In this document: positions 365-39,053 of the stretch, piece after piece
Layout of the letters: the number at the start of each line of letters is the position of its first letter
How positions within the stretch are numbered: the stretch's first letter is position 1
Origin: an uncultured Candidatus Saccharibacteria bacterium
Lineage (GTDB): Bacteria; Patescibacteriota; Saccharimonadia; CAILAD01; GCA-016700035
Length of the DNA stretch: 48,871 nucleotides
Assembly: GCA_937996675.1 (NCBI GenBank)
Contig: CALKUN010000113.1
Coordinates: 1 to 48,871, forward strand
Reading direction: 5' to 3'
The notes under the pieces: generated by a model
The model's input: only the letters and a program-made list of their open reading frames with translations
Database searches by the model: none
Told to the model about the DNA's origin: nothing
Position numbers and translations under genes: made by a program

Positions 365-400
365 ATAGTAAAAGCCCCGCCGAAGCGGGGCTTTTACTAT
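365..400. terminator. Bidirectional hairpin terminator between the ftsB-like gene and tRNA-CAT
   Basis: Perfect 16-bp stem ATAGTAAAAGCCCCGC / GCGGGGCTTTTACTAT with loop CGAA. It has A/T runs on both sides and abuts the 3' end of the minus-strand tRNA. Confidence 0.7.
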
Positions 401-21294: not shown

Positions 21295-21689
21295 TGACTG
21301 AAACACCTGATAATCTCCGTACTATTCATATCTACGTCGTCGAAGGCGATGACGTGTGGATCAAGCAGAATAATGACAGTCTGAACATCCAGTGGGATCC
21401 ACAGTCGGACGTCAAAGCGGGCGAGACGGTGTCTCGTCTGATGAACGAAGTATTCAATGGGAAACCGTTTGAGTTTCTCAACAGCGCCGAAAAGGCGTAT
21501 GATCCTACAGCGAAGGCCTTTTACTTTCTCGTCATGCTGCGCAACATCGGTGGGCCGACCGCAGCAGCGTCGGATTTGAAGAAGGTCAAGTCGATCTGGC
21601 TCACAGATGAAATCAACAAGCCAGACGGCGAATCAGAACTAATCAAAGATAGCTTCAAGCACTTTAAGCTATTACATAAACGAGTATAA
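21294..21689 (+). CDS. Hypothetical protein
   Basis: 131-aa ORF tightly packed in the operon. No family recognised. Confidence 0.5.
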   Translation: MTETPDNLRTIHIYVVEGDDVWIKQNNDSLNIQWDPQSDVKAGETVSRLMNEVFNGKPFEFLNSAEKAYDPTAKAFYFLVMLRNIGGPTAAASDLKKVKSIWLTDEINKPDGESELIKDSFKHFKLLHKRV

Positions 21690-21691
21690 CT

Positions 21692-22597
21692 ATGAAGACA
21701 ATATTTTTTATTGATGGCGAAAACTTCGTCTACCAACTACGTGACACATTGGCTAAAGGCCGCCTCATCCGCTACCGCGATGAGCTGGCACGTGTGGATA
21801 TTCGCAAGCTCTTTGTGAATACCCTGCAAGATGAAGGTGTGAAGGACTCGAGTATCCGCTACTATGCCTCCAAGATCCACATTATTGACCGTACGCCAGA
21901 GCTGAAAGAACGTACTGAGCGCTACCTAGCCGACTCTGAAGTCTGGCAGAAGGTCCTGGCTGACCAAAAGGTCGAATATATCGAAGCAGGTCACTTGCTC
22001 GTCCGTGACGGCAAACCATGCGTGGAGTGCGGACACCGTGAGCCTGTTTTGACCGAGAAGGGAACAGATGTAACTATCGCGACTGATCTCATCCGTGCAT
22101 CAGGCGAGAATGTTCGACTCGTCCTCTTGAGCTCAGATGGAGACCTCATGCCGGCGCTCGAAGAGTCCAAGCGACGTGGCTCCGAAGTGATTTATGTTGG
22201 ATTCCGCGGCGTGAGCAATGCGGCTCTCGCGCGGAATGCGACCAGCCGATTTACGATTACTACCAAGCTCGCCGCTGCCGTATTGGCACCAAAGTCCAAG
22301 TCTGATCCTGAATCAAAGGCTCGTCCAAAAGTTGGCGAGGTCAAAGGCAAAGGCACGACACAGCAGCAGAAGCCGCAAGCGACTGAGCACACTCACGCCG
22401 AACAGCCAGCTCCAGCTCAGGAAGTAAAGCCAAAGCCACAGAATCAGCAACGACGTGGACGAAATAATAACAATACTAATCGACAGAAGCCCGCCGCCGA
22501 TCAGCCAAGCGTATTTACCGGCTCTCGTCTAGCGAGCATTCTGCCAGGACCAGCGCCTGCCCAAAAGAAGGATAAGACCGATGGCCGAAAAGCGTGA
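21692..22597 (+). CDS. NYN-domain (LabA-like, PIN-fold) putative RNase with inserted zinc-ribbon-like segment and disordered basic tail
   Basis: [19 protein letters not shown] and [11 protein letters not shown] motifs of NYN domains, plus a CVECGH insert. The last 100 aa or so are low-complexity and K/P/Q-rich. It overlaps the dnaJ start by 17 nt. Confidence 0.7.
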
Positions 22598-23971: not shown

Positions 23972-24000
23972 AGCCTACATCTGTCGCTCAGTGCTGTCAA
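23972..24000 (-). promoter_or_regulatory. sigma70-type promoter of cassette C
   Basis: On the minus strand TTGACA (24000-23995), a 17-nt spacer, then TAGGCT (23977-23972). Confidence 0.55.
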
Positions 24001-24011
24001 TAAAATTACAA

Positions 24012-24039
24012 GACCCCTACGCTGGCTTGCGTAGGGGTC
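24012..24039 (-). terminator. Hairpin terminator of cassette D
   Basis: GACCCCTAC-GCAAGCCAGC-GTAGGGGTC on the minus strand, followed by TTGTAATTTTATT. Confidence 0.65.
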
Positions 24040-24048
24040 GGGGAAGGA

Positions 24049-24504
24049 CTAGCCGTCGCACATGATTCGCTCGAAGTACTCCGGCGGGTGCGACCTCAGG
24101 TTGAGGGGATTGGTCAGCGGCGCATCGGTTGGTGCCGGCGGTACTTCCCACTCATCCCAGAGGTCGTCCTCGAAGGACGGTCTGGGTGGGGATCGCTGAG
24201 TAAGGGTGGCCTTGGAGGTGTGGACCGACTCGAAGCCGGGCACTTCGCGGATGGCGATGTCGATTTTCCGGGCGGCGGCTTCGCTCAGAAGGGCCGTGCG
24301 GAAGCGGATCACCAGTTCGCCGCGAGGGCTGGCGATGGAGAGGAGGAGGCCGTCGAGCGCGATGCCGCCGATGCGTTCCAGTCGCTCACGAATGATTCCG
24401 GCCTTCCAGAACTTGCCGTCCTGGCAGTCGCTGCTGAAACCGTGCGGGAGGTGTGTGACGCTCAGTTGGTAGGTATCGGTACCGAAGTGGGGTGCAATGG
24501 TCAT
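24049..24504 (-). CDS. GC-rich orphan protein D (151 aa); shares a roughly 50-aa motif block with protein E
   Basis: ATG with a GGAG SD. A hand count of line 24301 gave about 70% G+C. A shadow ORF on the plus strand (24088..24519) is typical of high-GC coding DNA. Confidence 0.6.
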   Translation of the reverse strand: MTIAPHFGTDTYQLSVTHLPHGFSSDCQDGKFWKAGIIRERLERIGGIALDGLLLSIASPRGELVIRFRTALLSEAAARKIDIAIREVPGFESVHTSKATLTQRSPPRPSFEDDLWDEWEVPPAPTDAPLTNPLNLRSHPPEYFERIMCDG

Positions 24505-24539
24505 GGGTGCTCCAGATGAGTAGAGTTACATCGGAGCAA

Positions 24540-24568
24540 ATATTACATCCTTAAGGTGTAAATGTCAA
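24540..24568 (-). promoter_or_regulatory. sigma70-type promoter of cassette D
   Basis: On the minus strand TTGACA (24568-24563), a 17-nt spacer, then TAATAT (24545-24540). Confidence 0.6.
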
Positions 24569-24605
24569 TATGGGTTCTGTTCCGCTAGCAAGGCTGAGAC
24601 GGACA

Positions 24606-24637
24606 AAGCCTCCCTGTCTGGTGGGACAGGGAGGCTT
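24606..24637 (-). terminator. Hairpin downstream of cassette E
   Basis: 13-bp stem AAGCCTCCCTGTC / GACAGGGAGGCTT with a 6-nt loop. The downstream T-run is weak (TTGTCC). Confidence 0.45.
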
Positions 24638-24660
24638 GATGGGTGAATGTGAGGTGTGGC

Positions 24661-25038
24661 TCAGCCGGCGCTGGCACCTCCGAAGCCGAAGGGCACGCTG
24701 GAGTCGATGGCCATCGGCGTGAAGGGCTGCCGCTCAAAGGCGGCGTGGTTGCCGCTGAGCGTCTCCTGCACGCCGACCTTGCAGCCAGCCAGAGCGGCCA
24801 GGGCGCGTTCGATGTAACGCTGCACCACCTCACTGAGGCGGTTGGAGCGGACGCTGACCACCAGAGTGCCGTTCTCGATTCGGCAAGCAGTGACGTCGAG
24901 CTCCGGAATGGTGCGGTTCAGCCGATCCGCAAACTCCGACATGTCGGCGGCTTCGAGGGAGAGGGCGAGTGGTGGCTTGACGCTGACCTGCTTCTCATCT
25001 CTGGCTGCCGACGTGACTGAGGTACTCGTGTTGATCAT
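24661..25038 (-). CDS. GC-rich orphan protein E (125 aa); paralogous block with protein D
   Basis: ATG 25038 is preceded by a GAGAGGA SD. The track start at 25107 is the TTG of the -35 box. G/C-rich, with a plus-strand shadow ORF at 24643..25020. Confidence 0.6.
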   Translation of the reverse strand: MINTSTSVTSAARDEKQVSVKPPLALSLEAADMSEFADRLNRTIPELDVTACRIENGTLVVSVRSNRLSEVVQRYIERALAALAGCKVGVQETLSGNHAAFERQPFTPMAIDSSVPFGFGGASAG

Positions 25039-25723: not shown

Positions 25724-27016
25724 ATGAAGCAAACGCTCTACGAACGCCTCCTCAGGCGTTTTTTGATCAGCTGTATCCGGCGAGTCATGCGCAAGCAGTC
25801 GCCTCGGGTTATTGTCGTGACTGGTAGTCTCGGCAAGACTTCGACGCGGGCTGCTGTGGCGCGAGCCATCTCTGGTAGCTGGCCAGTCTTCACTCGCAGC
25901 CTCAAGAGCAACTTTGACCGAGGCCCCCTCATGGCGTTCTTCGGCCTGCGCCCCAACAAGAACATTCGCGGACGGCGTTTTTGGGTAGAAGATGTGCCGC
26001 GCATTTTGCGGCTCAGCAAGAAATATCCATATGAGCTGGTAGTGTTGGAAATATCTGAGATATCACTTACCAACCAGCTTGACCTGATAGAGGTGTTGCA
26101 GCCTACGATCTCTGTGCTGACAAGTCTCGCCAAGGTGCACGCATCGGATCACGCCGAGGATGACATCACATTACAGATGCAGAGCCTTATCGAGCATAGT
26201 GAGTCAGTTATCTACAATGCTGACTTTTCATCGCTGAAGGTAGTGGTCGACAATCATCCGCGAGTGAAGAGTTATGGTAGCGCCCGAACAGCCGACTATC
26301 GATTGATAGTGGCTGGGGTTGGCATAGACCAGCTCAGCAATTTCGTAATCCGACATGGCATGCAAGAATGGGACGTGCCGAGCAATCAGATCGGTCAGCA
26401 CTCTGGCGTGGCATACTCCGCGGCATTGGCCGTGACGGATGTGCTGGGCGGTGACATCCCCGATGCAATTGCCGAACTCAAGCTGCTCTACCCGGTGCGA
26501 GGTCGTCTCAATCCATTGCGGGGCATTCGTAAGTCTCTCATCATTGACGACTGCTACAACGCGAACGCTATCTCGATGGGTGCGGCGCTTGATACCCTGG
26601 CTCGGTTCCCGGCACCACGTATCGCTGTCTTGGGCAGTATGAATGAACTCGGCGACCATAGCCCTCGCGAGCACCGGGCTGTCGGTAGGAGAGTAGCGCA
26701 GTCGGCTGATGTGCTCATTGCGATAGGCGAAGATTCTACTCGCTATCTAGCACCTGCTGCGATACAGGCAGGCATGAAGTCCGACCAAGTGCATACATTC
26801 GAGTCGGCCCGAGCAGCCGGTGCCTATCTCAAACGGCATGTAGCCGTAAGCAGTACTGTTATGGGCAAGGGCTCTCAAGACGGCGTCTATACCGAAGAGG
26901 CCTTGCTTCCACTAGTAGTAGGGCGTGACAAGCGGCGACTGATCCGTCAGACGGCTTTCTGGCGAGCCAAAAAAGATCGTTTCTATGCCAATCTACAGAC
27001 TCGTCCAACTGAGTAA
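25724..27016 (+). CDS. Mur ligase family protein, MurF-like, lacking the N-terminal domain
   Basis: P-loop VTGSLGKTST, and DDCYNANAISMGAALDTL and GSMNELG blocks that resemble MurF. It sits next to ATP-grasp ligases rather than in a dcw cluster. Confidence 0.75.
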   Translation: MKQTLYERLLRRFLISCIRRVMRKQSPRVIVVTGSLGKTSTRAAVARAISGSWPVFTRSLKSNFDRGPLMAFFGLRPNKNIRGRRFWVEDVPRILRLSKKYPYELVVLEISEISLTNQLDLIEVLQPTISVLTSLAKVHASDHAEDDITLQMQSLIEHSESVIYNADFSSLKVVVDNHPRVKSYGSARTADYRLIVAGVGIDQLSNFVIRHGMQEWDVPSNQIGQHSGVAYSAALAVTDVLGGDIPDAIAELKLLYPVRGRLNPLRGIRKSLIIDDCYNANAISMGAALDTLARFPAPRIAVLGSMNELGDHSPREHRAVGRRVAQSADVLIAIGEDSTRYLAPAAIQAGMKSDQVHTFESARAAGAYLKRHVAVSSTVMGKGSQDGVYTEEALLPLVVGRDKRRLIRQTAFWRAKKDRFYANLQTRPTE

Positions 27017-27021
27017 AGGTA

Positions 27022-27050
27022 TTTACAAAGATCTTAAAAACAGGTATAAT
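27022..27050 (+). promoter_or_regulatory. sigma70-type promoter directly abutting the first ATP-grasp gene
   Basis: TTTACA (27022-27027), a 17-nt spacer, then TATAAT (27045-27050), then 9 nt to ATG 27060 with no SD. Confidence 0.5.
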
Positions 27051-27059
27051 ATAAGCACT

Positions 27060-27995
27060 ATGACCACCAAGCCACACAATCATGATGTGCTGGTCTTTTT
27101 TAGCTTTAAGTCCCACAAAAAAGGCTACTACAAGACACTCTTCGACCGTCTGACGAGCCAGGCGGCTGATTTTGGTTTGACTCTGCATCAGGGCTCACTC
27201 AAGGACCTCGTTATTTCCTACAAAGATAATAAGATGGAGATCACCGAAACAATGACCGGACGTGATCTATCTTCGTTTGGACTCGTATACTTTGAGCTTT
27301 TTACCAAGGCTCCACAGCAGGCATTGGCCGCCGCCGCTTACTTGGACCGCAAGAGGGTGCCATACTTCTCGCCGCAGGTTCGACAGATCCTTCCAGACTC
27401 TAAGCTGGCCGAAATGGCTCTCTTGGCCGATAATGGGCTCTCGATTCCAGATGGCATCACGTCTTCAAATACTCAGCTCAAGTCGATCTTTCGCGCGGAC
27501 CATCCAATTGAGTACCCATTCATTCTCAAAAGCGTGAAAGCCTTTGGTGGTGCTATGAATTTTTTGGTTCACGACTATGCCGAGCTTGTTGCTCACTTGG
27601 ATGAGAATCCGCAGGAGACGTTTATTATTCAGAGCTTTATTCCAAACCAGTTTGATTACCGCGTTCTGATCTTCGGTGGTGAGGTCAAACTCGTGCTCAA
27701 GCGATCACGCAATAGCGCCGAGACCCATCTCAATAACACATCCAAGGGTGCAGCTGGCGAATTCCTCGACCCATCCGAACTCACCGAAGATCAGATGGCT
27801 GATACACTCAAAGCAGCCAAGCTGCTCGGCCGGGAGGAGTTCTGTGGACTCGACCTGATTATCAATGAGCAGACTGGCGAGCACAGCATTCTGGAGATTA
27901 ATGAATCACCTGGTATCGAGCTTGGTGTCGAGCCTGAGAAGAAAATGGGCATCATGCTGGCCTATATGAAATCACGAATGGAGACACAGTCATGA
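27060..27995 (+). CDS. RimK-type ATP-grasp ligase paralog 1
   Basis: DYRVLIFGGEV, HLNNTSKGAAGE, GLDLI and ILEINESPG blocks matching the RimK/GshB-like ATP-grasp core. The start is chosen at the ATG after the promoter; track ORF 26985 overlaps the upstream gene. Confidence 0.75.
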   Translation: MTTKPHNHDVLVFFSFKSHKKGYYKTLFDRLTSQAADFGLTLHQGSLKDLVISYKDNKMEITETMTGRDLSSFGLVYFELFTKAPQQALAAAAYLDRKRVPYFSPQVRQILPDSKLAEMALLADNGLSIPDGITSSNTQLKSIFRADHPIEYPFILKSVKAFGGAMNFLVHDYAELVAHLDENPQETFIIQSFIPNQFDYRVLIFGGEVKLVLKRSRNSAETHLNNTSKGAAGEFLDPSELTEDQMADTLKAAKLLGREEFCGLDLIINEQTGEHSILEINESPGIELGVEPEKKMGIMLAYMKSRMETQS

Positions 27996-29383
27996 CACGA
28001 CCAGCTATGCAGAAGCCGCGAATTCTCTTCATGTTTGCCCGTGAGGCGGCAGCTGGATCGACTCGTTTTGATGGTTTTGTGAAGCGCCTCAAGAAGTATG
28101 GTGACTTCTCATTTGCGGACGCTGATGTTGCAGCGATCGAAGATATGGTCTTCCTGATCGATAAGCGCAAGGCCAAAGTCATCGACTGGCGTACGAAGAA
28201 AGACCCAGCCGACTACGACTTTGTGTACTTCAAGAACTGGCAGAGTATGCCCGACCAAGCAGCAGCCCTAGCTGTGTATCTAGAAGCCAAGGGTGTGCCA
28301 TACATCGACTACGCGATCACTCAGCGTCGTGGTAATGCTGGTAAGATTATCACTATGCTCAAGCTTTGGGCGGCACGCATTGCTACGCCGCGTACTGTTT
28401 ACGCATCGCCGAAACGCGTCGCGGACGTAGTGAGTTCCGATCTTGTGCAGTATCCGATGGTGATCAAGGCTGCGAATGGTGAGAAAGGTCAGAATAATTA
28501 TCTTGTAAAGACTGCTGCAGCAGCCCGCAAGGTCATTGCTGAACAGCCCGAGATCGACTGGATCATTCAGGACTTCATTCCAAATGATGGCGATTGGCGT
28601 GTACAAGTCTATGGCGGAGAGCCGGCCATGGTGATCAAGCGCAAGGGGAGTGGCGCGTCGCATCTCAATAATACTTCGGCTGGCGGAACGGCTGAGCTCT
28701 TTGAGCACAAAAAGGTACCCACAGCTGTGCTAGACTTGGCAGTCAAGGCTGCCGAGGTAATGGATCTTGCAGTATCGGGAGTAGACGTCATCGTCGACAA
28801 AGAGACCGGACGCAAGGCTATTCTTGAGGTGAACCAAGGTTCGCAAGTAGTCACTGGCGCGCATATCGAAGAAAACATCCAGGGCTTTGTAAAGTTCCTG
28901 AAGCGCACCACTCGCCGCCGCTACCATCGTAAGTCGACCCACGGCCTGCCGAAGAAAGTCATCGGACGCATCGAGCTGGTAGGGCTTCCCGAGTTTGGCC
29001 TCACCGACATTGCTGCAAAGTCTGACACTGGTGCATATAGTGGTGCATTGCACGCTGAGAACATCCGCCTGATCGAAAAAGGAAACAAGAAAGAACTTCA
29101 TTTTCAAATCCCGCACTTCACCGATGGCCGCACCCACACCACTGAACTCGTCGATTGTGTCAGTCATGACTTTGAAGCAGTTTTTGTAAAAAGCTCCAAT
29201 GGACAACGGCAGAACCGCTATAAGATCAGTACACTAGTACGTATACAAGGGCGCGGCTATCAGGCGCAATTCACCCTTACGAACCGTCAAACCCAGAAGG
29301 TGCCAATGCTGCTCGGCCGCAAGCTGTTGCGCGGCAACTTCCTAGTCAATGTAGAACTATCAAGAGGAGAAACACAATCATGA
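27992..29383 (+). CDS. Fusion of RimK-type ATP-grasp ligase (paralog 2) and a RimB/DUF785-like retropepsin-type aspartic peptidase domain
   Basis: The ATP-grasp blocks DWRVQVYGGEP, HLNNTSAGGTAE, GVDVIVD and ILEVNQGS are present. The C-terminal 150 aa or so carry AKSDTGAYSGALHA (DTG active-site-like) and MLLGRKLLRGNFLVN, as in proteins annotated 'putative ATP-dependent zinc protease' (RimB). ATGA overlap with the upstream gene. Confidence 0.7.
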   Translation: MTRPAMQKPRILFMFAREAAAGSTRFDGFVKRLKKYGDFSFADADVAAIEDMVFLIDKRKAKVIDWRTKKDPADYDFVYFKNWQSMPDQAAALAVYLEAKGVPYIDYAITQRRGNAGKIITMLKLWAARIATPRTVYASPKRVADVVSSDLVQYPMVIKAANGEKGQNNYLVKTAAAARKVIAEQPEIDWIIQDFIPNDGDWRVQVYGGEPAMVIKRKGSGASHLNNTSAGGTAELFEHKKVPTAVLDLAVKAAEVMDLAVSGVDVIVDKETGRKAILEVNQGSQVVTGAHIEENIQGFVKFLKRTTRRRYHRKSTHGLPKKVIGRIELVGLPEFGLTDIAAKSDTGAYSGALHAENIRLIEKGNKKELHFQIPHFTDGRTHTTELVDCVSHDFEAVFVKSSNGQRQNRYKISTLVRIQGRGYQAQFTLTNRQTQKVPMLLGRKLLRGNFLVNVELSRGETQS

Positions 29384-30288
29384 AAATCGCCATTCTATCA
29401 GCCGGACGAAAAAACTACTCTACTCAACGTCTCATGGAGGCGGCGGTTGCGCGTGGTCACGAAGCTATTATCGTCAACTACACCAAGGCATATATGGCGA
29501 TTGAGAGCTCTAACCAGACGGTACACGCTGCCGATCAGGAGATCACTGAAGATGTGCAGGCGGTAATTCCTCGTATTGCAGCCAAGCACACCAACTACGG
29601 TACGGCTGTGTTGCGTCAGTTTGAAATGATGCGTGCCTATACAGCGACCAGCTCACTGGCTCTCGTCCGTAGCCGTGACAAGCTCCGTTCGATGCAGCTT
29701 CTCGCTCGTGCTGGCGTGGGTATTCCCAAGACCGTCTTTGCGAGCCAGACAGCTGATGCTAACGACCTCCTTGAGCTCGTCGGCGGCGCACCGGTAGTTG
29801 TGAAACTCCTCGAAAGTACTCATGGATCAGGCGTCGTGTTGGGTGAGACTAAGAAAACTGCCAAGTCTATTATTGAGGCCTTCAACTCGATCAATGCCAA
29901 GATCATCTTGCAGGAGTTTGTGGAAGAAGCTGACGGCGCTGACATTCGTGTAGTCGTGGTAGGCGATCGCATCGTGGCTTCGATGATGCGTAAGGGCGGT
30001 GAAGGTGAATTCCGTAGTAACACTCATCGTGGCGGACAGGTTCTTCCAGTCCAACTCACCAAGAAGGAGGCAAACATCGCGCTCAAGGCGGCTCGTACGC
30101 TCGGTATTAATATTGCTGGTGTAGATATCATCCGATCAAAGCGTGGCCCATTGATCCTCGAAGTAAACAGCTCACCAAGCCTCAAGGGCGTGGAGCGTCT
30201 CACCGGGCAGGACATCGCTGGCGAGATGATCGACTATGTAGTCGCGCGAGCACAGGGCAAGCGAACGCGCGATAAGATAGGGGCATAA
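29380..30288 (+). CDS. rimK: Ribosomal protein S6--L-glutamate ligase-type ATP-grasp enzyme (RimK)
   Basis: Canonical RimK length and blocks: DIRVVVVGDRIVASM, EFRSNTHRGG, GVDIIRS, ILEVNSSPSL. ATGA overlap with the upstream gene. Confidence 0.85.
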   Translation: MKIAILSAGRKNYSTQRLMEAAVARGHEAIIVNYTKAYMAIESSNQTVHAADQEITEDVQAVIPRIAAKHTNYGTAVLRQFEMMRAYTATSSLALVRSRDKLRSMQLLARAGVGIPKTVFASQTADANDLLELVGGAPVVVKLLESTHGSGVVLGETKKTAKSIIEAFNSINAKIILQEFVEEADGADIRVVVVGDRIVASMMRKGGEGEFRSNTHRGGQVLPVQLTKKEANIALKAARTLGINIAGVDIIRSKRGPLILEVNSSPSLKGVERLTGQDIAGEMIDYVVARAQGKRTRDKIGA

Positions 30289-30411: not shown

Positions 30412-31701
30412 ATGAGCTCAACCGCAACCCGTTGGAAGGATCAGTCCTTCGCTATCGCATCCTCAAATGGAGCGGCGCCGATCCATGATTGGTTCGAACA
30501 GACACCCGAGGTGCTGGCACGCTTGCGTGCAGCTCTTCTCGCCGGCAGCCCGTTGAATCCTCAGTACCCCGTACTTCAGGCTCAGGATCTCACCGCCAAG
30601 GTCGCAAGTCTGAGCGGATACACGGCATCCGACCAGCCGCTGGAGAAGTTGTACTCGCAGGTCTTCAGCCAGCGCAGGAGGCTTCTGCAGCTGGCCATCG
30701 CCGCGCAGGCGGGTGACATGGCAGCCTTCAGGGTCGCCACAGAGAACATGGCCCTGCAGCCGGACGTCGGATCGTTTCGACGCATTCTCGGCAATCTCGC
30801 CGAGCGTGCTGGAGACCGACCCAACCGGGCCGCCGAAGAGCTGTTCGGCATGTTCCCGCCGGACTACGGCTTCAAGCCGAGCTTGCCGCGAGCAGCCTTC
30901 GTTCAGAAGCTGCGCGATCCAGTGATGGCACTGGTCGAGTCGCTCGGTCTGCCAACCGTCATCCCTCCCGCCGAGGAGGTGTGGGATGCCAAGCGCATCG
31001 CTGCGACCCTGGAAGCCACGGTTCTGCCACCGGCGTTCGATGATGCGCGCGTCAAGATGCGCGTCGTCATCACCGCCAAGAAGCCACGCCCCGTCGCCAC
31101 GCGGAAGGGCACGATGTACATCCCGGAGAGCCTCATGCTCAACGGGGTGGATGCATATGTGCTGATGGTGCGCCTTCGACTCACCGTCGAGCGCTGGTAC
31201 CGAGGTGAGCTCACCGGCTACTACATCATGCTCAACGGCACCGTTGCCGACCTGACTGCCGGCCCGGCCATCCTCACGGTGGTCGAGCAGGTTCTGAGGA
31301 GCAATGCCAACTTCTACGCCGAGGAAGATGCCTACCTGGCATGCTCGTTGGCGGAGGGGATCGGCTCTGAGCCCAAGTCCATCTACGAAGTGTACGCCGC
31401 CATGGTGGCGTACTACCGCTTCGTGGACACGCAGCTGCCCACGGGTGCCGCCATTCCACGCTCGATCGAAGACCGCGCGTGGTCGATGACCTGGAAGACC
31501 TTCGCCGGAACCGACTGCAAGACCCCCGGGGTCTACGCCGGTTTCGGTACCAGGGCTTTGCGAGCCACGGTCAGCCTCTGGGATGCCCTTATGCGCGAGC
31601 CGCGCATCGTCGAGTGCTTCCACCTGGGTCGATTCGATCCTGGCTTCGCGACCGAAGTGAACCTTCTGGTCGAAGCGGGGGCCATTCCGGCTCTGAGGTA
31701 G
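30412..31701 (+). CDS. GC-rich orphan protein F (429 aa), no family confidently recognised
   Basis: Hand counts of lines 30481 and 30781 gave about 65-68% G+C, with G/C-dominated third positions on the plus frame. The 386-aa antisense shadow ORF (30463..31623) is typical of high-GC coding DNA. A strong SD precedes the start and a terminator follows. Confidence 0.7.
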   Translation: MSSTATRWKDQSFAIASSNGAAPIHDWFEQTPEVLARLRAALLAGSPLNPQYPVLQAQDLTAKVASLSGYTASDQPLEKLYSQVFSQRRRLLQLAIAAQAGDMAAFRVATENMALQPDVGSFRRILGNLAERAGDRPNRAAEELFGMFPPDYGFKPSLPRAAFVQKLRDPVMALVESLGLPTVIPPAEEVWDAKRIAATLEATVLPPAFDDARVKMRVVITAKKPRPVATRKGTMYIPESLMLNGVDAYVLMVRLRLTVERWYRGELTGYYIMLNGTVADLTAGPAILTVVEQVLRSNANFYAEEDAYLACSLAEGIGSEPKSIYEVYAAMVAYYRFVDTQLPTGAAIPRSIEDRAWSMTWKTFAGTDCKTPGVYAGFGTRALRATVSLWDALMREPRIVECFHLGRFDPGFATEVNLLVEAGAIPALR

Positions 31702-31716
31702 GAGGATTTAGTACCC

Positions 31717-31759
31717 GCGACTGTTGCTATGACGTACGTCATAGCAACAGTCGCTTTTT
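31717..31759. terminator. Strong hairpin terminator after cassette F, shared with the convergent trpC-like gene
   Basis: Perfect 17-bp stem GCGACTGTTGCTATGAC / GTCATAGCAACAGTCGC with loop GTAC, followed by TTTTT. Confidence 0.85.
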
Positions 31760-32298
31760 CATGCGTGCCGGCTGGCTACAAATTGTTCAAGGTGAGTGCC
31801 GACGAGTATGGCATCGGCAGCTGGATCGACATCGTTCATTGTCATGATGTTGCTGGCTTGGCAAAGCCATCCTCTGAAAGCTTTGCGGGCCTCCGCGAAT
31901 GTTTCTGATTTGAGCCCGCCAGTAGCAAGGTCGCGGCTGTTCCAGACAGCACGACATTGCCCGGGCAGTCTGGTGAGTTCAGCGATGGTGTAGGGTTCAA
32001 TGAGGCACTTATCTAGATGGATAGCAGGTATTCGTCCGACAACGAGCACATGGTCGGCGCCTGCCACGAGAGCTTGTTTGATGTCATCATCGCTCGCATG
32101 GATTCCTTTTGCGAGGATTGGCTTAGTGGTGAGGCTACGGGCTTTCCGCACCAGGTCAAAAGATCCATGCCAGCGTGGATCGGTATGGATTGAGATAATA
32201 TCACCGACCTCGTTCGCCATTGCGAAGAGTTCGCTCCAGCTCTTGTCGGACTGCCATCCAAAAGGGGAGTGAGTTTTTACCTCGGCGATGACCTGCAT
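31759..32298 (-). CDS. Short indole-3-glycerol-phosphate synthase (TrpC)-like TIM-barrel protein
   Basis: IAEVKTHSP.G, ISIHTD...GSF, PILAKG, GADHVLV, NSRDL and LVG blocks occur in IGPS order. It is only 179 aa, and no other trp genes are in the window. Confidence 0.55.
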   Translation of the reverse strand: MQVIAEVKTHSPFGWQSDKSWSELFAMANEVGDIISIHTDPRWHGSFDLVRKARSLTTKPILAKGIHASDDDIKQALVAGADHVLVVGRIPAIHLDKCLIEPYTIAELTRLPGQCRAVWNSRDLATGGLKSETFAEARKAFRGWLCQASNIMTMNDVDPAADAILVGTHLEQFVASRHA

Positions 32299-34987: not shown

Positions 34988-35722
34988 ATGAGTGGTCACA
35001 GTAAATGGGCAAGCATCAAGCACAAAAAAGGTGCTCTAGATGCTAAGCGCGGTAAGATCTTTACCAAGCTTGGCAACGAGATCGCTATCGCGGCACGCGA
35101 TGGTGCGGATCCGGATGCAAACTTTCGCCTTCGTCTAGCTATCCAAAAAGCCAAGCAGTCTAATATGCCAGCGGCCAACATCGATCGATCGATTGCTCGT
35201 GGTGCTGGCACGGCCGGTGGTGCCGCATTGGACGAGCTCACCTACGAGGGCTACGGTCCGGCTGGTGTAGCTGTCATGGTGCAGGCGCTGACGGACAACC
35301 GCAACCGCACGGCTTCTGATGTGAAGCTGGCATTTTCTAAGCATGGCGGTACCTTGGGTAGTCAGGGCAGTGTGGCCTATCTCTTTGAAACAAAAGGCGT
35401 ATTGGTCTGCACGACAGATGCCGATGCCGATGAAGTGACACTGGCAGCCATTGAGGCCGGCGCACTCGACATAGATGATAGCGGGGAGCAGGTGATTATT
35501 TATACTAAGCCTAGCGAGCTCGAAGCTATTCGCATGGCTGTTGGTGAGAACAATGTTGAGAGCTCGGACGTTGAGCAAATAGCTAGCCAGACCATCGCAG
35601 TGGAAGACGCGGGCAAAGCCGGCACACTGATGCGTATGATTGACGCCCTCGAAGATCTTGATGATGTCGCGACAGTGACAGCCAACTACGACATCGCTGA
35701 GTCGATTCTCGAAAGTCTCTAA
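34988..35722 (+). CDS. yebC: YebC/PmpR family DNA-binding regulator
   Basis: MSGHSKWASIKHKKG...KRGKIFTKL N-terminus. The start is set at ATG 34988; the track ORF extension from 34514 overlaps comEC and is discarded. Confidence 0.93.
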   Translation: MSGHSKWASIKHKKGALDAKRGKIFTKLGNEIAIAARDGADPDANFRLRLAIQKAKQSNMPAANIDRSIARGAGTAGGAALDELTYEGYGPAGVAVMVQALTDNRNRTASDVKLAFSKHGGTLGSQGSVAYLFETKGVLVCTTDADADEVTLAAIEAGALDIDDSGEQVIIYTKPSELEAIRMAVGENNVESSDVEQIASQTIAVEDAGKAGTLMRMIDALEDLDDVATVTANYDIAESILESL

Positions 35723-36309
35723 TGAACATACAGGATTGGTACGGTCTCATTGCGGGTGTGCTCTCGGCCTCGTGCTACGTTCCGTATATCCGTGACATTT
35801 TGTCGGGTACGACTCGTCCGGAGCGCGCCACTTGGCTCATATGGACAATTCTCGGTCTCATTTTGCTCGCATCTCAATTGGCTAAGGGCGCGAGTGCGTC
35901 GGTGTGGCTGACGGTTGCACAGACAGCCGGTGTGACAACGATCTTTTTGTTGTCCCTCAAGTACGGTGAGGGCGGCTTGGCCCGTTCGGATATCGTTGCA
36001 CTGGGAGTTGCGGCGGCTGGTCTGGTGGCCTGGTACTTTACGCGCGAAGCCTCTGTCGCTCTCTATATCGCTATTGGAGTAGACTTTTCTGGAGGGATAT
36101 TGAGTGTCGTGAAGGCTTACCGTGACCCGGAGAGCGAGACCGCCCTGACTTGGCTCATCGCGGCTTTTGCTGGAGGTTTTGGAGTACTTGCCGTGGGCCT
36201 CGATGGCTCAATTGCATTGCTGGCATTTCCGACATATTACGTCATCATTAGTCTCATGCTGTATGGTGCAATACAACTTGGGCATCGCAAAGTTGTATCA
36301 CGCGCATGA
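35722..36309 (+). CDS. Hypothetical polytopic membrane protein
   Basis: 195 aa with about 6 TM helices. TAATG overlap with yebC and a 4-nt overlap with ruvC. Confidence 0.6.
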   Translation: MNIQDWYGLIAGVLSASCYVPYIRDILSGTTRPERATWLIWTILGLILLASQLAKGASASVWLTVAQTAGVTTIFLLSLKYGEGGLARSDIVALGVAAAGLVAWYFTREASVALYIAIGVDFSGGILSVVKAYRDPESETALTWLIAAFAGGFGVLAVGLDGSIALLAFPTYYVIISLMLYGAIQLGHRKVVSRA

Positions 36310-36782
36310 TTATCCTCGGTGTAGACCCCGGCACTGCTACTACAGGATTTGGTGTGATCCGCGTGGAGAAAGGCCGCTCGACCATGCTCGACTGTGGCAT
36401 CATCTCGACGCCAAAAGACTTAGCGCACGCTGAGCGCTTGCGTATTCTCTACGATGACCTGAGCGAACTCATCGCCTATCACAAGCCGGTGCGGGTAGGC
36501 GTGGAGAAGCTTTTTTTCTCATCAAATATTACGACAGCCATGGCCGTGAGCGAGGCGCGCGGAGTTGTTCTGCTCGCCATTGAGCAAGCAGGACTGGAGC
36601 TCGCTGAGTTCACGCCGACTCAAGTGAAGCAGGCTACAACAGGCTATGGGCAGGCGAAGAAAAAACAAATGCAAGCCATGGTACAAAAGATATTGCAGCT
36701 AGAGGTAGTCCCACAGCCCGACGATGCCGCTGATGCACTGGCTATCGCCCTCGCTGCTGCCCACATGATTACCCCGCGATAG
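36306..36782 (+). CDS. ruvC: Holliday junction resolvase RuvC
   Basis: IILGVDPGTATTGFGVI N-terminus and C-terminal DDAADALAIAL. Confidence 0.95.
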   Translation: MIILGVDPGTATTGFGVIRVEKGRSTMLDCGIISTPKDLAHAERLRILYDDLSELIAYHKPVRVGVEKLFFSSNITTAMAVSEARGVVLLAIEQAGLELAEFTPTQVKQATTGYGQAKKKQMQAMVQKILQLEVVPQPDDAADALAIALAAAHMITPR

Positions 36783-36946
36783 GGCTCGGGTGAGCTCGAT
36801 CGCGGGGAGATTAACGCTTGTACGGACTGCGTTGAGTCCGAGGTCGGTAGAAGCGGGGAGGCGCTTCGCGGGTGGGACGGATGCATTTCGGCAAATGCGG
36901 CGAGTGAAAGAGGCGGATGAGGAAGGTTGGGGGATGAACGATCTGG

Positions 36947-37312
36947 CTAGGCAACCCGACCTCCGAAGCGGTGCCGCGCTGCGTCGATGTGTGCCTGAGA
37001 GCTGGCCGCGATGGCGCTCTGCTCCAAGTCGATGAGCTTATAGCGCTCGTCTCGCGCTCGTCGGTAGGCATTCAGCTCGATGGGCTTCATCCCACTTCGC
37101 ATGTCCACCATGGTGTTGGTTCTCAGCGCGTCTTCGAGACACGAAACCTCAACCCGACAACCGGTACAAGCCTTTTGAGCCCGTTCGGTGACGGTGGGGC
37201 AGCAGAATTCTTCGTGCTGCATGTCCTTACAACCAGCCTCAGCTCGCCAGGGCTGTTGACTGAAGCTCACTCCACCACAGGGGTGGGGCGAGTGTGCCGT
37301 GGGTCGCCCCAT
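36947..37312 (-). CDS. GC-rich WhiB-like (Wbl) iron-sulfur protein
   Basis: W-x5-C ... C-TG-C-RVEVS-C-LEDAL reproduces the Wbl pattern C-x(n)-C-x2-C-x5-C (compare the M. tuberculosis WhiB1 segment VCNRCPVTTECLSWAL). A basic region AYRRARDERY follows. ATG 37312 has a GGGAG SD 7 nt upstream. An alternative TTG at 37336 has AAGAGG 5 nt upstream. A hand count of line 36961 gave about 70% G+C. Confidence 0.6.
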   Translation of the reverse strand: MGRPTAHSPHPCGGVSFSQQPWRAEAGCKDMQHEEFCCPTVTERAQKACTGCRVEVSCLEDALRTNTMVDMRSGMKPIELNAYRRARDERYKLIDLEQSAIAASSQAHIDAARHRFGGRVA

Positions 37313-37368
37313 GACGATACTCCCGGTAACCGTCAAAAGAACCTCTTTTCTATCGTAGGGTGCTGATA

Positions 37369-37383
37369 CTTGTAGAATACAAG
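37369..37383. promoter_or_regulatory. Perfect inverted repeat in the WhiB-like / ruvA divergent intergenic region
   Basis: CTTGTA-GAA-TACAAG. It overlaps a possible TTGTAT -35 for the WhiB-like gene, with TACGAT 19 nt downstream on the minus strand. Confidence 0.35.
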
Positions 37384-37413
37384 ACCGGTCATGCTCTCCA
37401 CAAGGGGATAGTT

Positions 37414-37442
37414 TTGGCTTGTGTTCGCTGTACCGGTATAAT
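37414..37442 (+). promoter_or_regulatory. sigma70-type promoter for ruvA-ruvB
   Basis: TTGGCT (37414-37419), a 17-nt spacer, then TATAAT (37437-37442), 7 nt before ATG 37450. Confidence 0.6.
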
Positions 37443-37449
37443 GGGAGGA

Positions 37450-38010
37450 ATGATTGCATTACTACAGGGTGAGGTAGTTTCGAAGGGGAGTGATAGTCTC
37501 ACGCTTCTGGTTGGTGGTGTTGGATATGACCTCGCAGTACCGAGCCGTGATATGCACCACTTGGCACTTGGCGAGCTTCAAACCTTCTATGTTGCCGAGC
37601 AGATTCGCGAAGATGCCTATGACCTCTATGGGTATATGGAAGAGGCTGAGAAACGGCTGCATTTCAAGCTCGTGACGGTGCAGGGGATAGGGCCACGCAT
37701 GGCGCACGCTATTCTGTCGGTCTATGACGCAGCGACGTTTGCGGAGATCATCGAACATGAAGACTTAGTGCGACTCGGTCAAGTATCTGGGGTGGGCAAG
37801 AAGACTGCTCAACGCATGTTGCTCGACCTCAAGGGCAAGCTCGTTGACGTAGCGAGCGGCGAAGGCATGGTGAGTGATGATCCGGCTCTGATGGCGCTCG
37901 TACAGCTCGGCTTTAGCCGTGATCAGGCGAGTCAGTCACTGAAGAATATTGATAGCACGCAGCCCACCAGCGAGCGAGTGCGTGAGGCGCTGAAGGGGAT
38001 ACAGGGATGA
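37450..38010 (+). CDS. ruvA: Holliday junction helicase subunit RuvA
   Basis: [10 protein letters not shown]-terminus, HhH motifs ([24 protein letters not shown]), and a C-terminal domain III. Confidence 0.93.
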
Positions 38011-39053
38011 TCGAGCGACCAGCTGAAGAGCTACGCCCCGAAGCACTACCAACTGACGATGTGGTCGTCGAAGAGACACTGCGTCCGCGAGCCTTTGATG
38101 ATTACGTTGGTCAGCGTCAGGCGATTGACTCGCTGAAGGTGGCTATCCAGGCAGCCAAGCAGCGTGGCGATGCGCTGGACCATGTCTTACTCTATGGTCC
38201 TCCAGGGCTCGGGAAGACGACGCTGGCACATATCGTGGCCAACGAAATGGGCGCACAGCTGAAGATCACATCTGGCCCGGCCATTGAGCGAGCCGGCGAT
38301 CTGGCTAGTCTCCTTACGAACCTGAATGAAGGCGATATGCTTTTTATCGACGAAATTCACCGGCTGGGACGAACGGTCGAGGAGATACTCTATCCAGCGA
38401 TGGAAGATTATGCGATCGACATCATGCTTGGCAAGGGACCATCAGCTCAGTCACTACGACTCGACTTGCCGCCGATTACTATCATCGGTGCCACCACCCG
38501 GTATGGCGCGCTGTCTGGACCGCTGCGCGATCGCTTCGGGCTCATCCATCGACTAGAGTTCTACAAGCCGGAAGAAATCGCTCAGATCCTGACGCGTTCG
38601 TCGAAGTTGCTGAACGTAGAGATTGAGCCAGAGTCTCTCACGATGTTGGCTGCTCGCTCCAGGCTCACTCCACGTATTGCAAATCGACTTATCAAACGAG
38701 TGCGAGATTATGCCGAGGTGCACAATAAGGGTCAAGTCGATGCGACGTCTCTTGACTCTGCCTTGGGTCTTCTGGAAATTGATGCACTTGGCCTCGATAG
38801 CTCTGACCGCCGTCTCCTCCAGACGCTCGTCGATCACTACCAAGGTGGTCCAGCCGGCGTCGAAGCGCTTGCCGCCGCTCTGTCTGAAGAGCGCCAGACG
38901 ATTGAGGATGTGATTGAACCGTATTTGATCCAAGTCGGGCTCCTCAAACGCACAACCCGGGGCCGTCAATTGAGCAATCAAGGCTGGAAGCATCTTGGGT
39001 ATACGCCGCCTACCCCGGACGTCGCCCAGCCCTCGCTCGATCTTGAGGAATAA
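38007..39053 (+). CDS. ruvB: Holliday junction helicase RuvB
   Basis: LRP..FDDYVGQ, Walker [10 protein letters not shown], and DEIHRL. ATGA overlap with ruvA. Confidence 0.97.

What the first reader, a model, noticed from the sequence alone, without database searches (positions are those of the whole stretch)
36783..37442. WhiB-like Fe-S regulator gene wedged between ruvC and ruvA on the opposite strand
Seen: ruvC ends at 36782 and ruvA starts at 37450. The 667-nt gap is G+C-rich and carries a minus-strand ORF whose product contains W-x5-C, then 25 residues, then C-TG-C-RVEVS-C-LEDAL, followed by a basic AYRRARDERY stretch.

Established: the C-x(n)-C-x2-C-x5-C arrangement with a following basic segment defines WhiB-like (Wbl) proteins. 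As far as I know, these are confined to Actinobacteria and their phages. The GVWGG turn is replaced here by DMRSG, so the protein is divergent.

About 165 nt of G+C-rich non-coding sequence (36783-36946) trails the stop codon, as expected for a larger foreign fragment. ruvA has acquired its own TTGGCT-17-TATAAT promoter 7 nt from its ATG. A perfect inverted repeat CTTGTA-GAA-TACAAG (37369-37383) lies in the divergent control region.

Inference: this is a horizontally acquired actinobacterial or actinophage regulator in a non-actinobacterial genome. It could sense redox or NO, or could mimic a host factor.
Basis: partly seen in the sequence, partly recalled or inferred. Interest (0 to 1): 0.8.

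Follow-up and report, generated by a model that had tools for sequence, protein, structure and literature searches.

The report
WhiB-like gene in a Saccharibacterium
A small iron-sulfur regulator of the WhiB type, a family the literature calls exclusive to Actinobacteria and their viruses, is a conserved and selected gene in a group of Saccharibacteria, tiny bacteria whose cultivated members live attached to Actinobacteria.

Summary
A minus-strand ORF (36947-37312, 121 aa) lies in the 667-nt ruvC-ruvA gap. It passes Pfam's Whib cut-off (29.0 vs 23.6 bits), and its Cys28/49/52/58 align with the cluster ligands of solved WhiB/WhiB1 structures.

The genome is a Candidatus Saccharibacteria (CPR) genome, so it is not actinobacterial. 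The gene is not a recent insertion. The same ruvC | wbl(-) | ruvA arrangement occurs in five Saccharibacterial lineages. Three of them carry a canonical WhiB (FFP, GVWGG) about 60% identical to ordinary actinobacterial WhiBs.

The window's version is a fast-evolving but selected derivative or replacement. Its dN/dS is 0.15, against 0.015-0.03 for the ruv genes. It has lost the GVWGG turn and two of the four aromatic-patch residues, and gained a long C-terminal helix. Its nearest distant relatives (38%) sit in phage-like contigs.

The "non-coding" 3' tail is probably a conserved 47-codon ORF coupled to the wbl stop codon. The inverted repeat is not conserved.

The most likely function is a [4Fe-4S]-dependent factor that binds sigma region 4 inside the Saccharibacterium. 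This is inferred, not shown. No paper reporting Wbl proteins in Saccharibacteria was found. I file it as a new variant of a known kind.

The parts
36947..37312 (-). wbl: gene for a divergent WhiB-like protein of 121 aa. Cluster ligands are C28, C49, C52 and C58. Extra conserved Cys are C12, C37 and C38. The usual GVWGG turn is DMRSG. Residues 77-117 are predicted as one long helix.
   Evidence: Pfam Whib 29.0 bits against a cut-off of 23.6. Ligands align to PDB 8dy9_H and 5oay. PHROG phrog_1333 scores 42 bits. The AF2 model has pLDDT 77, and the top Foldseek hit is WhiB 8dy7_H at probability 0.93. dN/dS is 0.15 against L001 with no indels. Residues 35-63 and 65-80 do not vary among the strain variants.
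37313..37336 (-). Possible N-terminal extension. A conserved TTG at 37336 is preceded by AGAGG (37342-37346) with a 5-nt spacer, and would give a 129-aa product.
   Evidence: The TTG and the AGAGG are conserved in L001. The GGGAG before the ATG at 37312 is not. The true start is unresolved.
36811..36954 (-). Candidate 47-codon ORF: (M)PSQIVHPPTFLIRLFHSPHLPKCIRPTREAPPRFYRPRTQRSPYKR. Its TTG start overlaps the wbl stop codon (G-TTG-CCT-AG), in the +1 frame relative to wbl. In the window, GGAGG lies 5 nt upstream.
   Evidence: The first 75 nt after the wbl stop are about 83% identical to L001, against about 40% in the next 55 nt. The frame is open in the window, in 7 strain variants and in L001. 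Of 14 polymorphic sites, 10 are synonymous and 4 are not, with codon positions 5/0/9 and P=3.4e-4. Of 11 codons that differ from L001, 6 are synonymous in this frame and 0-3 in the other five frames. No homologue and no family were found.
36772..36807 (.). Conserved G+C-rich hairpin (CCCCGCGAT...ATCGCGGGG with an inner GCTC/GAGC stem). It overlaps the ruvC stop codon and lies 3 nt beyond the stop of the small ORF. It is a likely two-way transcript end for the convergent ruvC and wbl units, but has no T-run.
   Evidence: The last ~26 nt of the aligned gap, covering this hairpin, are identical between window and L001 apart from one C/T at the end. It is present in the MFE and centroid folds of both sequences. 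The simple terminator scan did not call it.
37313..37449 (.). Divergent control region between wbl and ruvA.
   Evidence: It is 47% G+C. Only 4 of 137 sites vary among strains, against 8% in the wbl CDS. It is well conserved against L001.
37414..37442 (+). ruvA promoter-like site, TTGGCT-17-TATAAT, ending 7 nt before the ATG. This implies a leaderless or nearly leaderless ruvA(B) transcript.
   Evidence: It is the only sigma-70-type match in 36200-37700. The same site is found in L001. In L012 a TATAAT lies 6 nt before the ruvA ATG. These are consensus matches only.
37369..37383 (.). Inverted repeat CTTGTA-GAA-TACAAG. It is probably not a functional operator.
   Evidence: It is present. One arm has 3 mismatches in L001, and it is polymorphic in strains L096, L099 and L100.
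36306..36782 (+). ruvC
   Evidence: Pfam RuvC, 160 bits.
37450..38010 (+). ruvA
   Evidence: Pfam RuvA_N, HHH_5 and RuvA_C.
38007..39053 (+). ruvB
   Evidence: Pfam RuvB_N, 260 bits. The best species-level match is 74%, to a Candidatus Saccharibacteria MAG.

Best explanation

Origin. A wbl gene entered an ancestor of this Saccharibacterial clade by horizontal transfer from Actinobacteria or their phages. Actinobacteria are the hosts of cultivated Saccharibacteria. The gene landed between ruvC and ruvA on the opposite strand and split the ruvCAB operon, so ruvAB now has its own promoter. The gene has been inherited at that spot since. In the window's lineage it either diverged strongly in place or was replaced by a phage-type wbl.

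Mechanism (inferred). C28, C49, C52 and C58 hold a [4Fe-4S] cluster. The cluster face, with W22 and F36, docks on region 4 of the cell's own primary sigma factor. The long C-terminal helix with its RRAR stretch lies near promoter DNA. Loss or nitrosylation of the cluster changes the output.

What is shown and what is not. Family membership, locus conservation and selection are shown here. Cluster binding, sigma binding and target genes are inferred from the family. A translationally coupled 47-codon ORF just downstream probably belongs to the same unit.
For: Family membership:
- Pfam Whib score is above the curated cut-off.
- The four Cys, W22 and G74 are invariant in an alignment with distant Wbls. 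They align with the ligands of solved WhiB and WhiB1.
- The AF2 model shows four short helices plus one long helix. Its best structural matches are WhiB and WhiB7, weakly.

Real gene under selection:
- Against L001 the length is identical with no indels at dS 1.4, and dN/dS is 0.15 (0.21 in the core).
- Residues 35-63 and 65-80 do not vary among 14 strain variants.

Organism:
- RuvB, RuvA and RuvC best matches are Saccharibacteria MAGs (74/56/60% to L012).

Locus conservation:
- L001, L012, L092/93 and L094/95 all have wbl on the opposite strand next to ruvC and/or ruvA.
- L013, L015 and L017 have contiguous ruvC-ruvA.

Actinobacterial source:
- The L012-type Wbl is 57-66% identical to ordinary 80-85-aa WhiBs, one of them labelled Acidimicrobiales. 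It is at most 50% identical to actinophage WhiBs.

Canonical interface kept in sister lineages:
- FFP and GVWGG are intact in L012, P0041 and P0042.

Literature on mechanism and family range:
- PMC13013590, PMC6954389 and PMC6282962.
Against: - Two of the four aromatic-patch residues used for sigma binding are lost (AP3 F->C37, AP4 W->R72), and so is the Gly-rich turn. Sigma binding by this particular protein is therefore uncertain.
- The protein evolves 5-10 times faster than its neighbours at non-synonymous sites.
- In a neighbour-joining bootstrap the five Saccharibacterial Wbls never form one clade (0 of 200). The window clade sits nearer to phage-encoded Wbls. Common descent with the L012-type gene rests on position alone.
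- No sigma factor gene, Fe-S assembly genes or expression data could be examined.
- The SD-like motif before the ATG is not conserved in L001.
Confidence: 0.6

Rival explanations
1. Neofunctionalised Wbl. The protein still holds a cluster or a metal but no longer works through sigma region 4. It might act through its long C-terminal helix and/or the coupled 47-aa basic peptide, or as a thiol/redox protein using its three extra conserved cysteines.
For: The GVWGG turn and AP3/AP4 are lost, while C12, C37 and C38 are conserved in both lineages. The 77-117 helix is predicted with high confidence. A selected small ORF is coupled to the stop codon, and it is absent from the loci that carry canonical Wbls.
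Against: W22 and F36 (AP1, AP2) remain. That meets the minimal aromatic-patch criterion met by 98.7% of Wbls (PMC13013590). Arg at the AP4 position recurs in other Wbls (GVRGG, GVRAG, DFRAG). WhiB6 binds sigma with an Arg cap, a non-aromatic residue at the AP3 position and a long h4.
Confidence: 0.2
2. Host-directed factor. The Wbl is delivered to, or acts on, the actinobacterial host. It would compete with host Wbls for host sigma-A region 4, as the phage TM4 WhiB interferes with host whiB2.
For: Cultivated Saccharibacteria are epibionts of Actinobacteria (PMC10633639 abstract). The nearest distant relatives are phage-encoded Wbls. Non-synonymous evolution at the termini is fast. A ~900-bp block of low divergence around wbl, between strains whose flanks differ by 6-13%, suggests recent allele exchange. 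The TM4 precedent is in PMC8612146.
Against: There is no evident secretion signal and no nearby secretion genes tied to the gene. It has a stable housekeeping position, sharing a control region with ruvA. The core is strongly conserved. There is no evidence that Saccharibacteria deliver proteins into host cytoplasm. The actinobacterial host of this lineage is assumed, not shown.
Confidence: 0.1
3. The window's wbl is a second acquisition. A phage-type wbl cassette, with its small downstream ORF, replaced the older canonical wbl at the same site. This rivals only the in-place-divergence part of the history, not the function.
For: BLASTP against the L012 Wbl finds only a 19-residue match. The best distant hits, P0017 and P0021, are in phage-like contigs and share the short 19-20-residue loop and the GM.P.E motif. 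phrog_1333 is the best profile. G+C and GC3 are higher than in the neighbours. There is an extra 164 nt and a small ORF that L012-type loci lack. The five Saccharibacterial Wbls are never monophyletic (0 of 200).
Against: Same site and same orientation in all five lineages. The branch is long and only ~70 sites are alignable, so the tree is unreliable. No donor closer than 38% exists among 1.84 billion representative proteins. There is no tblastn hit in 50,697 phage genomes.
Confidence: 0.4
4. Artefact or remnant: a spurious ORF, a decaying pseudogene, or host DNA mis-binned or mis-assembled into the contig.
For: The Pfam score is only modestly above threshold. NCBIfam gives no hit. In the related lineage, P0041 has lost one Cys ligand.
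Against: The 821-nt region is identical in 9 independent assemblies, and a tenth is identical over the 645 nt it covers. The flanks are Saccharibacterial on both sides within single contigs of up to 195 kb, and 644 kb for L012. dN/dS is 0.15 with no indels at dS 1.4.
Confidence: 0.03

Closest known systems
Canonical actinobacterial Wbl proteins (M. tuberculosis WhiB1, PDB 5oay/6ono; Streptomyces venezuelae WhiB, PDB 8dy7/8dy9)
   Same: Both are small proteins with W-x5-C...C-x2-C-x5-C-L-x2-A-L. All four cluster ligands, AP1 (Trp) and AP2 (Phe) are aligned. The model shows helices packed around the ligands and a basic stretch after the turn.
   Different: The organism is a Saccharibacterium, not an actinobacterium. 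The turn is DMRSG, not G[VI]WGG. AP3 is Cys and AP4 is Arg. The first loop is shorter (20 residues, against 22-27). There is a 21-residue N-terminal extension with a conserved Cys, and a ~40-residue C-terminal helix in place of a short basic tail.
Canonical-type Wbl of related Saccharibacteria (L012 ORF 3065-3363, P0041, P0042)
   Same: Same locus and orientation, between ruvC and ruvA. Same phylum. Same family.
   Different: These keep FFP and HGVWGG and are ~60% identical to ordinary actinobacterial WhiBs. Pairwise similarity to the window protein is confined to 19 residues. They have no downstream small ORF, because the wbl stop lies 14-35 nt from the ruvC stop.
Phage-encoded Wbls (PHROG phrog_1333/phrog_472; P0017 and P0021 in phage-like metagenome contigs; mycobacteriophage TM4 WhiB as the studied case)
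   Same: The best profile score is to phrog_1333 (42 bits). P0017 and P0021 share the short loop and the G-M-x-P-x-E segment, and P0021 also has Arg at AP4.
   Different: Identity is at most 38%. There is no tblastn hit in 50,697 phage genomes. The window gene sits among housekeeping genes of a cellular genome, not in a phage replication module.
M. tuberculosis WhiB6
   Same: It is a Wbl that departs from the standard aromatic patch. It has a non-aromatic residue at the AP3 position, an Arg that caps the cluster pocket, and a much longer helix h4, yet it still binds sigma-A region 4 (PMC13013590).
   Different: The Arg in WhiB6 is at a different position (R38, a functional stand-in for AP1). 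WhiB6 keeps Trp at AP4. The resemblance comes from the paper's description and was not tested by alignment here.

Membership tests
WhiB-like (Wbl) family, Pfam PF02467 | Profile match above the curated gathering score | tested here: met
   29.0 bits against 23.6, E=1.6e-6, residues 71-125 of the 170-aa ORF matched to profile positions 1-58 of 65. Phage Wbl profiles also match: phrog_1333 at 42 bits and phrog_472 at 30 bits.
WhiB-like (Wbl) family, Pfam PF02467 | Four invariant Cys (C-Xn-C-X2-C-X5-C) that ligate the [4Fe-4S] cluster | tested here: met
   C28-x20-C49-x2-C52-x5-C58. They align to the ligands of S. venezuelae WhiB and M. tuberculosis WhiB1. They are invariant in alignment A1 and in all strain variants.
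WhiB-like (Wbl) family, Pfam PF02467 | Gly-rich beta-turn G[V/I]WGG after helix 3 | tested here: not met
   The sequence is D70-M-R-S-G74. Only the last Gly is kept. Partial variants (GVRGG, GVRAG, DFRAG) occur in other distant Wbls.
WhiB-like (Wbl) family, Pfam PF02467 | Aromatic patch AP1-4 (W3, F17, F18, W60 of WhiB1) used to bind sigma-A region 4 | tested here: inconclusive
   AP1 is W22 and AP2 is F36, both present. AP3 is C37 and AP4 is R72, both non-aromatic (alignment). This meets the minimal rule of at least 2 aromatics with at least 1 at AP2-3, a rule met by 98.7% of Wbls (PMC13013590). It falls short of the canonical patch.
WhiB-like (Wbl) family, Pfam PF02467 | Small helical fold wrapped around the cluster | tested here: inconclusive
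   The AF2 model has pLDDT 77 with helices at 21-25, 33-37, 43-49, 55-65 and 77-117. The top Foldseek hits are WhiB (8dy7_H, probability 0.93, E 0.09, TM 0.32-0.49) and WhiB7. This is consistent but weak. The model has no cluster, and its coordinates could not be inspected.
WhiB-like (Wbl) family, Pfam PF02467 | Binds an O2/NO-sensitive [4Fe-4S] cluster | not testable with these tools
   This needs anaerobic purification with UV-vis and EPR.
WhiB-like (Wbl) family, Pfam PF02467 | [quoted passage not shown] | not testable with these tools
   No sigma factor gene is in the window or in any locus held. From my own knowledge, the RHPSR motif that holds this pair is widespread in group-1 sigma factors, E. 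coli sigma-70 included. I did not check this for Saccharibacteria.
WhiB-like (Wbl) family, Pfam PF02467 | Taxonomic range: Actinobacteria and actinobacteriophages only, as stated in reviews | tested here: not met
   The flanking ruvB, ruvA and ruvC genes and their synteny are Saccharibacterial. This is a statement about distribution, not a molecular criterion. It is the point of interest here.

The most novel reading that the evidence does not exclude
The Saccharibacterial Wbl, perhaps together with its coupled 47-aa basic peptide, is a tool of the epibiotic lifestyle. It would be a phage-like Wbl that targets or mimics the Wbl-sigma-A system of the actinobacterial host. The host-facing parts would evolve fast and alleles would be exchanged between strains. 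Under this reading it is not a purely internal regulator.
Probability: 0.1. Interest if true: 0.9.

Novelty: new variant of a known kind. Interest (0 to 1): 0.62.

Why it matters
Reviews and a 2026 structural survey describe Wbl proteins as exclusive to Actinobacteria and their phages (PMC6282962, PMC8612146, PMC13013590). In this clade of Saccharibacteria, part of the candidate phyla radiation, a wbl gene has been kept at one chromosomal site through considerable divergence and is under selection.

That has three consequences:
- It extends the family to a second phylum.
- It adds a concrete case of regulatory-gene flow along the epibiont-host (or host-phage) axis.
- It offers a natural experiment on how portable the Wbl-sigma region 4 mechanism is. 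Sister lineages keep the canonical interface, while this lineage has remodelled it.

Saccharibacteria have very few known regulators, so a redox/NO-responsive one next to the Holliday-junction genes would be a useful handle on their physiology. The finding is a distribution and variant result. It is not a new mechanism.

Tried and rejected
- A scan of species-representative genomes with the Wbl protein itself found no relative. The organism was identified through RuvB instead.
- tblastn of the Wbl against 50,697 phage genomes gave no hit.
- NCBIfam gave no hit for the Wbl, the L012 Wbl, the small ORF or the neighbouring 195-aa membrane protein.
- Rfam at E<=1 over 36500-37700 gave no RNA family, so the conserved 3' block is not a known RNA.
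- A search for a sigma region 4 coding sequence in the window and all 103 held sequences found nothing usable.
- A homologue search with the 47-aa peptide found nothing. PHROGs also gave nothing.
- The ORF downstream of the phage Wbl P0021 is unrelated to the small ORF.
- That tree cannot separate in-place divergence from replacement.
- The inverted repeat was rejected as an operator because it is not conserved.
- A programmed +1 frameshift joining Wbl to the small ORF was considered and judged unlikely. GCC-TAG is not a slippery site, and a TTG start overlapping the stop is the simpler reading.
- Literature searches for WhiB together with Saccharibacteria, TM7, Patescibacteria, CPR, Saccharimonadia or Nanosynbacter returned only papers about the actinobacterial host or unrelated co-mentions, judged from titles and abstracts.
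Full report
**1. What is in the sequence**

ruvC (36306-36782, Pfam RuvC 160 bits) and ruvA (37450-38010, RuvA_N matched from residue 1) are separated by 667 nt. ruvB follows at 38007-39053.

The gap holds a minus-strand ORF. From the ATG at 37312 to the stop at 36947 it encodes 121 aa: MGRPTAHSPHPCGGVSFSQQPWRAEAGCKDMQHEEFCCPTVTERAQKACTGCRVEVSCLEDALRTNTMVDMRSGMKPIELNAYRRARDERYKLIDLEQSAIAASSQAHIDAARHRFGGRVA. This exact protein is in public collections as P0001, a cluster of 24 members seen on 31 contigs up to 195 kb. The 821-nt region is 100% identical in 9 independent assemblies, and a tenth is identical over the 645 nt it covers. That excludes a misassembly.

The spacer between the first and second ligand Cys is 20 residues, not 25. 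The gap is 58.5% G+C against 52.7% for the window, the 95th percentile. The wbl GC3 is 68%, against 58-61% in the ruv genes. This is a mild compositional deviation.

**2. Family**

- Pfam Whib (PF02467) scores 29.0 bits against a gathering score of 23.6.
- Against PDB sequences the only meaningful hits are S. venezuelae WhiB (8dy9_H) and M. tuberculosis WhiB1 (5oay, 6ono).
- C28, C49, C52 and C58 align to the four cluster ligands. W22 aligns to WhiB1 W3 and F36 to F17.
- In an alignment with the best distant homologues, the four Cys and G74 are invariant and W22 is nearly so.
- An AlphaFold2 model (mean pLDDT 77) has four short helices and one long helix at 77-117.
- Its best Foldseek matches in the PDB are WhiB (probability 0.93, E 0.09) and WhiB7. 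This agrees with the family assignment but is weak.

Measured against the family motifs in PMC13013590, the protein keeps the four Cys, AP1 and AP2. It has Cys at AP3 and Arg at AP4, and DMRSG in place of the G[V/I]WGG turn. Arg at the AP4 position recurs in other distant Wbls (GVRGG, GVRAG, DFRAG). The window protein is therefore a member by profile and ligands, with a remodelled sigma-facing surface.

**3. Organism**

- The window carries a P-type ATPase, tilS, ftsH, murJ, lepA, hrcA-grpE-dnaK-dnaJ, comEC, yebC, ruvCAB, a type IV pilus ATPase and a pilin.
- RuvB's best species-representative match is a Candidatus Saccharibacteria MAG (L012, 74%). Saccharimonadales MAGs follow at 59-64%.
- RuvA and RuvC discriminate better. 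They are 56% and 60% identical to L012 and 35-39% and 47-56% to other Saccharibacteria. Against Firmicutes they are 28-35% and 43-46%.

The genome is therefore a Saccharibacterium of the candidate phyla radiation, not an actinobacterium.

**4. The locus in relatives**

The sister lineage L001 has RuvB 98%, RuvA 95% and RuvC 92% identity. It has the same ruvC | wbl(-) | ruvA layout, with a 121-codon wbl that is only 69% identical.

L012 has a minus-strand ORF in the same gap that is a textbook WhiB...DPKTFFPG...CNTCPVKDRCLEYALANRIDHGVWGGESERSRRRILK.... Its close relatives P0041 (89%) and P0042 (77%) also lie next to ruvC and/or ruvA on the opposite strand.

More distant Saccharimonadales differ:
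- L013, L015 and L017 have ruvC and ruvA essentially contiguous.
- L016 and L018 have unrelated genes in the gap.

So a wbl was inserted into ruvCAB in an ancestor of one Saccharibacterial clade and has been kept there. A TATAAT 6-7 nt before the ruvA ATG is shared by the window, L001 and L012. This fits a leaderless ruvAB transcript that arose once the operon was split.

**5. Source**

The L012-type protein is 57-66% identical to many ordinary 80-85-aa WhiBs that share ANRIDHGVWGG. One of them is named Acidimicrobiales by NCBI. It is at most 50% identical to WhiBs in 1,199 actinophage records. This points to a cellular actinobacterial donor for that type.

The window protein is an orphan:
- An exhaustive HMMER scan of 1.84 billion representatives finds only itself and P0002, then nothing better than 38% identity at E 3.5e-6.
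- There is no phage tblastn hit.
- The best distant hit, P0017, lies in a 70-kb contig next to DnaB, a primase and a DnaE-like polymerase. That polymerase is closest to those of Gordonia phages.
- P0021 lies in a run of small same-strand ORFs with a methyltransferase and a Gp3-like protein.
- The best profile is the phage family phrog_1333.
- In a neighbour-joining bootstrap the five Saccharibacterial Wbls were never monophyletic (0 of 200). The window clade is a long branch without a stable sister.

Either the gene diverged very fast in place, or a phage-type wbl replaced the older one at the same site. The data do not decide between these.

**6. Selection**

| Comparison with L001 | dN/dS |
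|---|---|
| wbl | 0.15 (dS 1.41, no indels) |
| ruvC | 0.026 |
| ruvA | 0.030 |
| ruvB | 0.015 |

Within wbl, pN/pS is 0.21 in the core (residues 22-80) and 0.42 in the C-terminal part. Among 14 strain variants, residues 35-63 and 65-80 never change, and variation lies in the two termini.

The gene is functional. It is much less constrained than its neighbours outside the cluster-binding core.

**7. The 3' tail is not junk**

Between the window and L001, the first 75 nt after the wbl stop are about 83% identical. The next ~55 nt are about 40% identical. The last ~26 nt are identical apart from one terminal C/T.

That last block is a strong hairpin (36772-36807) overlapping the ruvC stop. It is found in the folds of both sequences.

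The conserved block fits a 47-codon ORF at 36954-36811:
- It is on the minus strand, in the +1 frame relative to wbl.
- Its TTG start overlaps the wbl stop (G-TTG-CCT-AG).
- It stays open in the window, in seven strain variants and in L001, where it is 45 codons long.
- Of 14 polymorphic sites among strains, 10 are synonymous in this frame. Codon positions are 5/0/9, and P=3.4e-4 against a 25% expectation.
- The other two same-strand frames give 5 and 0 synonymous sites.
- Against L001, 6 of 11 differing codons are synonymous in this frame, and 0-3 in the other five frames, most of which contain stops.

The peptide is basic and Pro-rich. It has no homologue or family hit, and gene callers did not call it. 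It is absent from L012-type loci. I read it as a small gene translationally coupled to wbl. This rests on sequence evolution only.

**8. Control region**

- The 137-nt wbl-ruvA spacer is A+T-richer (47% G+C). It is the least variable part of the locus among strains, with 4 of 137 sites varying.
I do not regard it as an operator.
- A conserved AGAGG-N5-TTG at 37346-37334 could be the true wbl start and would give 129 aa. The GGGAG before the ATG is not conserved in L001.
- No Rfam family matches.

**9. Mechanism**

Shown here: family membership, ligand conservation, a fixed locus and purifying selection.

Inferred from the family (PMC6954389, PMC13013590): a [4Fe-4S] cluster on C28/C49/C52/C58, and docking of the cluster face on the His-Pro pair of primary sigma region 4. 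Output would depend on the cluster state (O2, NO). The sister lineages keep FFP and GVWGG intact. This argues that a compatible partner for that surface exists in, or is met by, these Saccharibacteria.

For the window protein, the loss of AP3, AP4 and the turn makes sigma binding less certain. As described in PMC13013590, WhiB6 tolerates a non-aromatic AP3, uses an Arg cap and has a long h4, and it still binds sigma.

Rival readings:
- A neofunctionalised cluster or thiol protein working with the small peptide (0.2).
- A host-directed mimic in the manner of phage TM4 WhiB (0.1).
- An artefact or remnant (0.03).

I could not test the sigma factor, because no sigma gene is in any sequence held.

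**10. Novelty**

The literature in the library states that Wbls are exclusive to Actinobacteria and actinophages (PMC6282962, PMC8612146, PMC13013590). Searches combining WhiB with Saccharibacteria, TM7, Patescibacteria, CPR, Saccharimonadia or Nanosynbacter returned only papers on the actinobacterial host or unrelated co-mentions, judged from titles and abstracts. Database pipelines already tag the protein with PF02467, so its existence is recorded but not discussed.

I rate it a new variant of a known kind. It is a Wbl kept by selection in a second phylum, with a remodelled interface, a long C-terminal helix and a probable coupled small ORF. It is interesting mainly for Wbl evolution and for the biology of Saccharibacteria and their hosts. 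It is not a new mechanism.

Noticed in passing
window 36811-36954 (-): A 47-codon ORF overlaps the wbl stop codon (TTG start). It has a coding-type substitution pattern, with 10 synonymous and 4 non-synonymous polymorphisms and none at codon position 2. It encodes a basic, Pro-rich peptide with no known relatives. Gene callers did not call it.
   Followed up: yes
window about 36750-37650, against L096: Strain L096 differs from the window by 6-13% per 150 nt in ruvB, ruvC and further out. It differs by only 0-3% across a ~900-bp block covering the ruvA 5' end, the control region, wbl, the small ORF and the hairpin. Synonymous divergence is 0.05 in wbl against 0.25-0.27 in ruvA and ruvC. This looks like recent recombination or a sweep of the wbl cassette between strains.
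   Followed up: partly
L092 80-463 and L093 80-463 (P0041): A canonical-type Saccharibacterial Wbl has Phe in place of the second Cys ligand (AIFNTCPV, against AICNTCPV in L012). The change is seen in two independent samples. It could be a three-Cys variant or a gene starting to decay.
   Followed up: no
window 36772-36807: A conserved G+C-rich hairpin overlaps the ruvC stop codon, between the convergent ruvC and wbl units. It has no T-run, and the terminator scan missed it.
   Followed up: partly
window 25724-30288 (+): A Mur-ligase-like gene is followed by three consecutive RimK-type ATP-grasp genes, one of them fused to a Zn_protease domain. This may be a peptide- or polyglutamate-adding module.
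   Followed up: no
window 30412-31701 (+) and 24000-25000: These are the most G+C-rich stretches of the window (57-62%). One holds a 429-aa ORF with no Pfam family and a 386-aa shadow ORF on the other strand.
   Followed up: no
window 31759-32298 (-): A 179-aa ORF matches only positions 49-140 of the 254-position indole-3-glycerol-phosphate synthase profile. It may be a truncated trpC remnant.
   Followed up: no
window 21294-22597 (+): A NYN-domain gene and a 131-aa ORF with no family sit between dnaK and dnaJ in the hrcA-grpE-dnaK-dnaJ cluster.
   Followed up: no
window 35722-36309 (+): A 195-aa ORF with no family hit lies between yebC and ruvC and overlaps the ruvC start. Strains have it at the same place, and L001 has a shorter 146-aa ORF at the equivalent spot whose homology was not checked.
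   Followed up: no
window 400-475 and 3296-3371 (-): Two tRNA-Met (CAT) genes flank a P-type cation ATPase gene.
   Followed up: no
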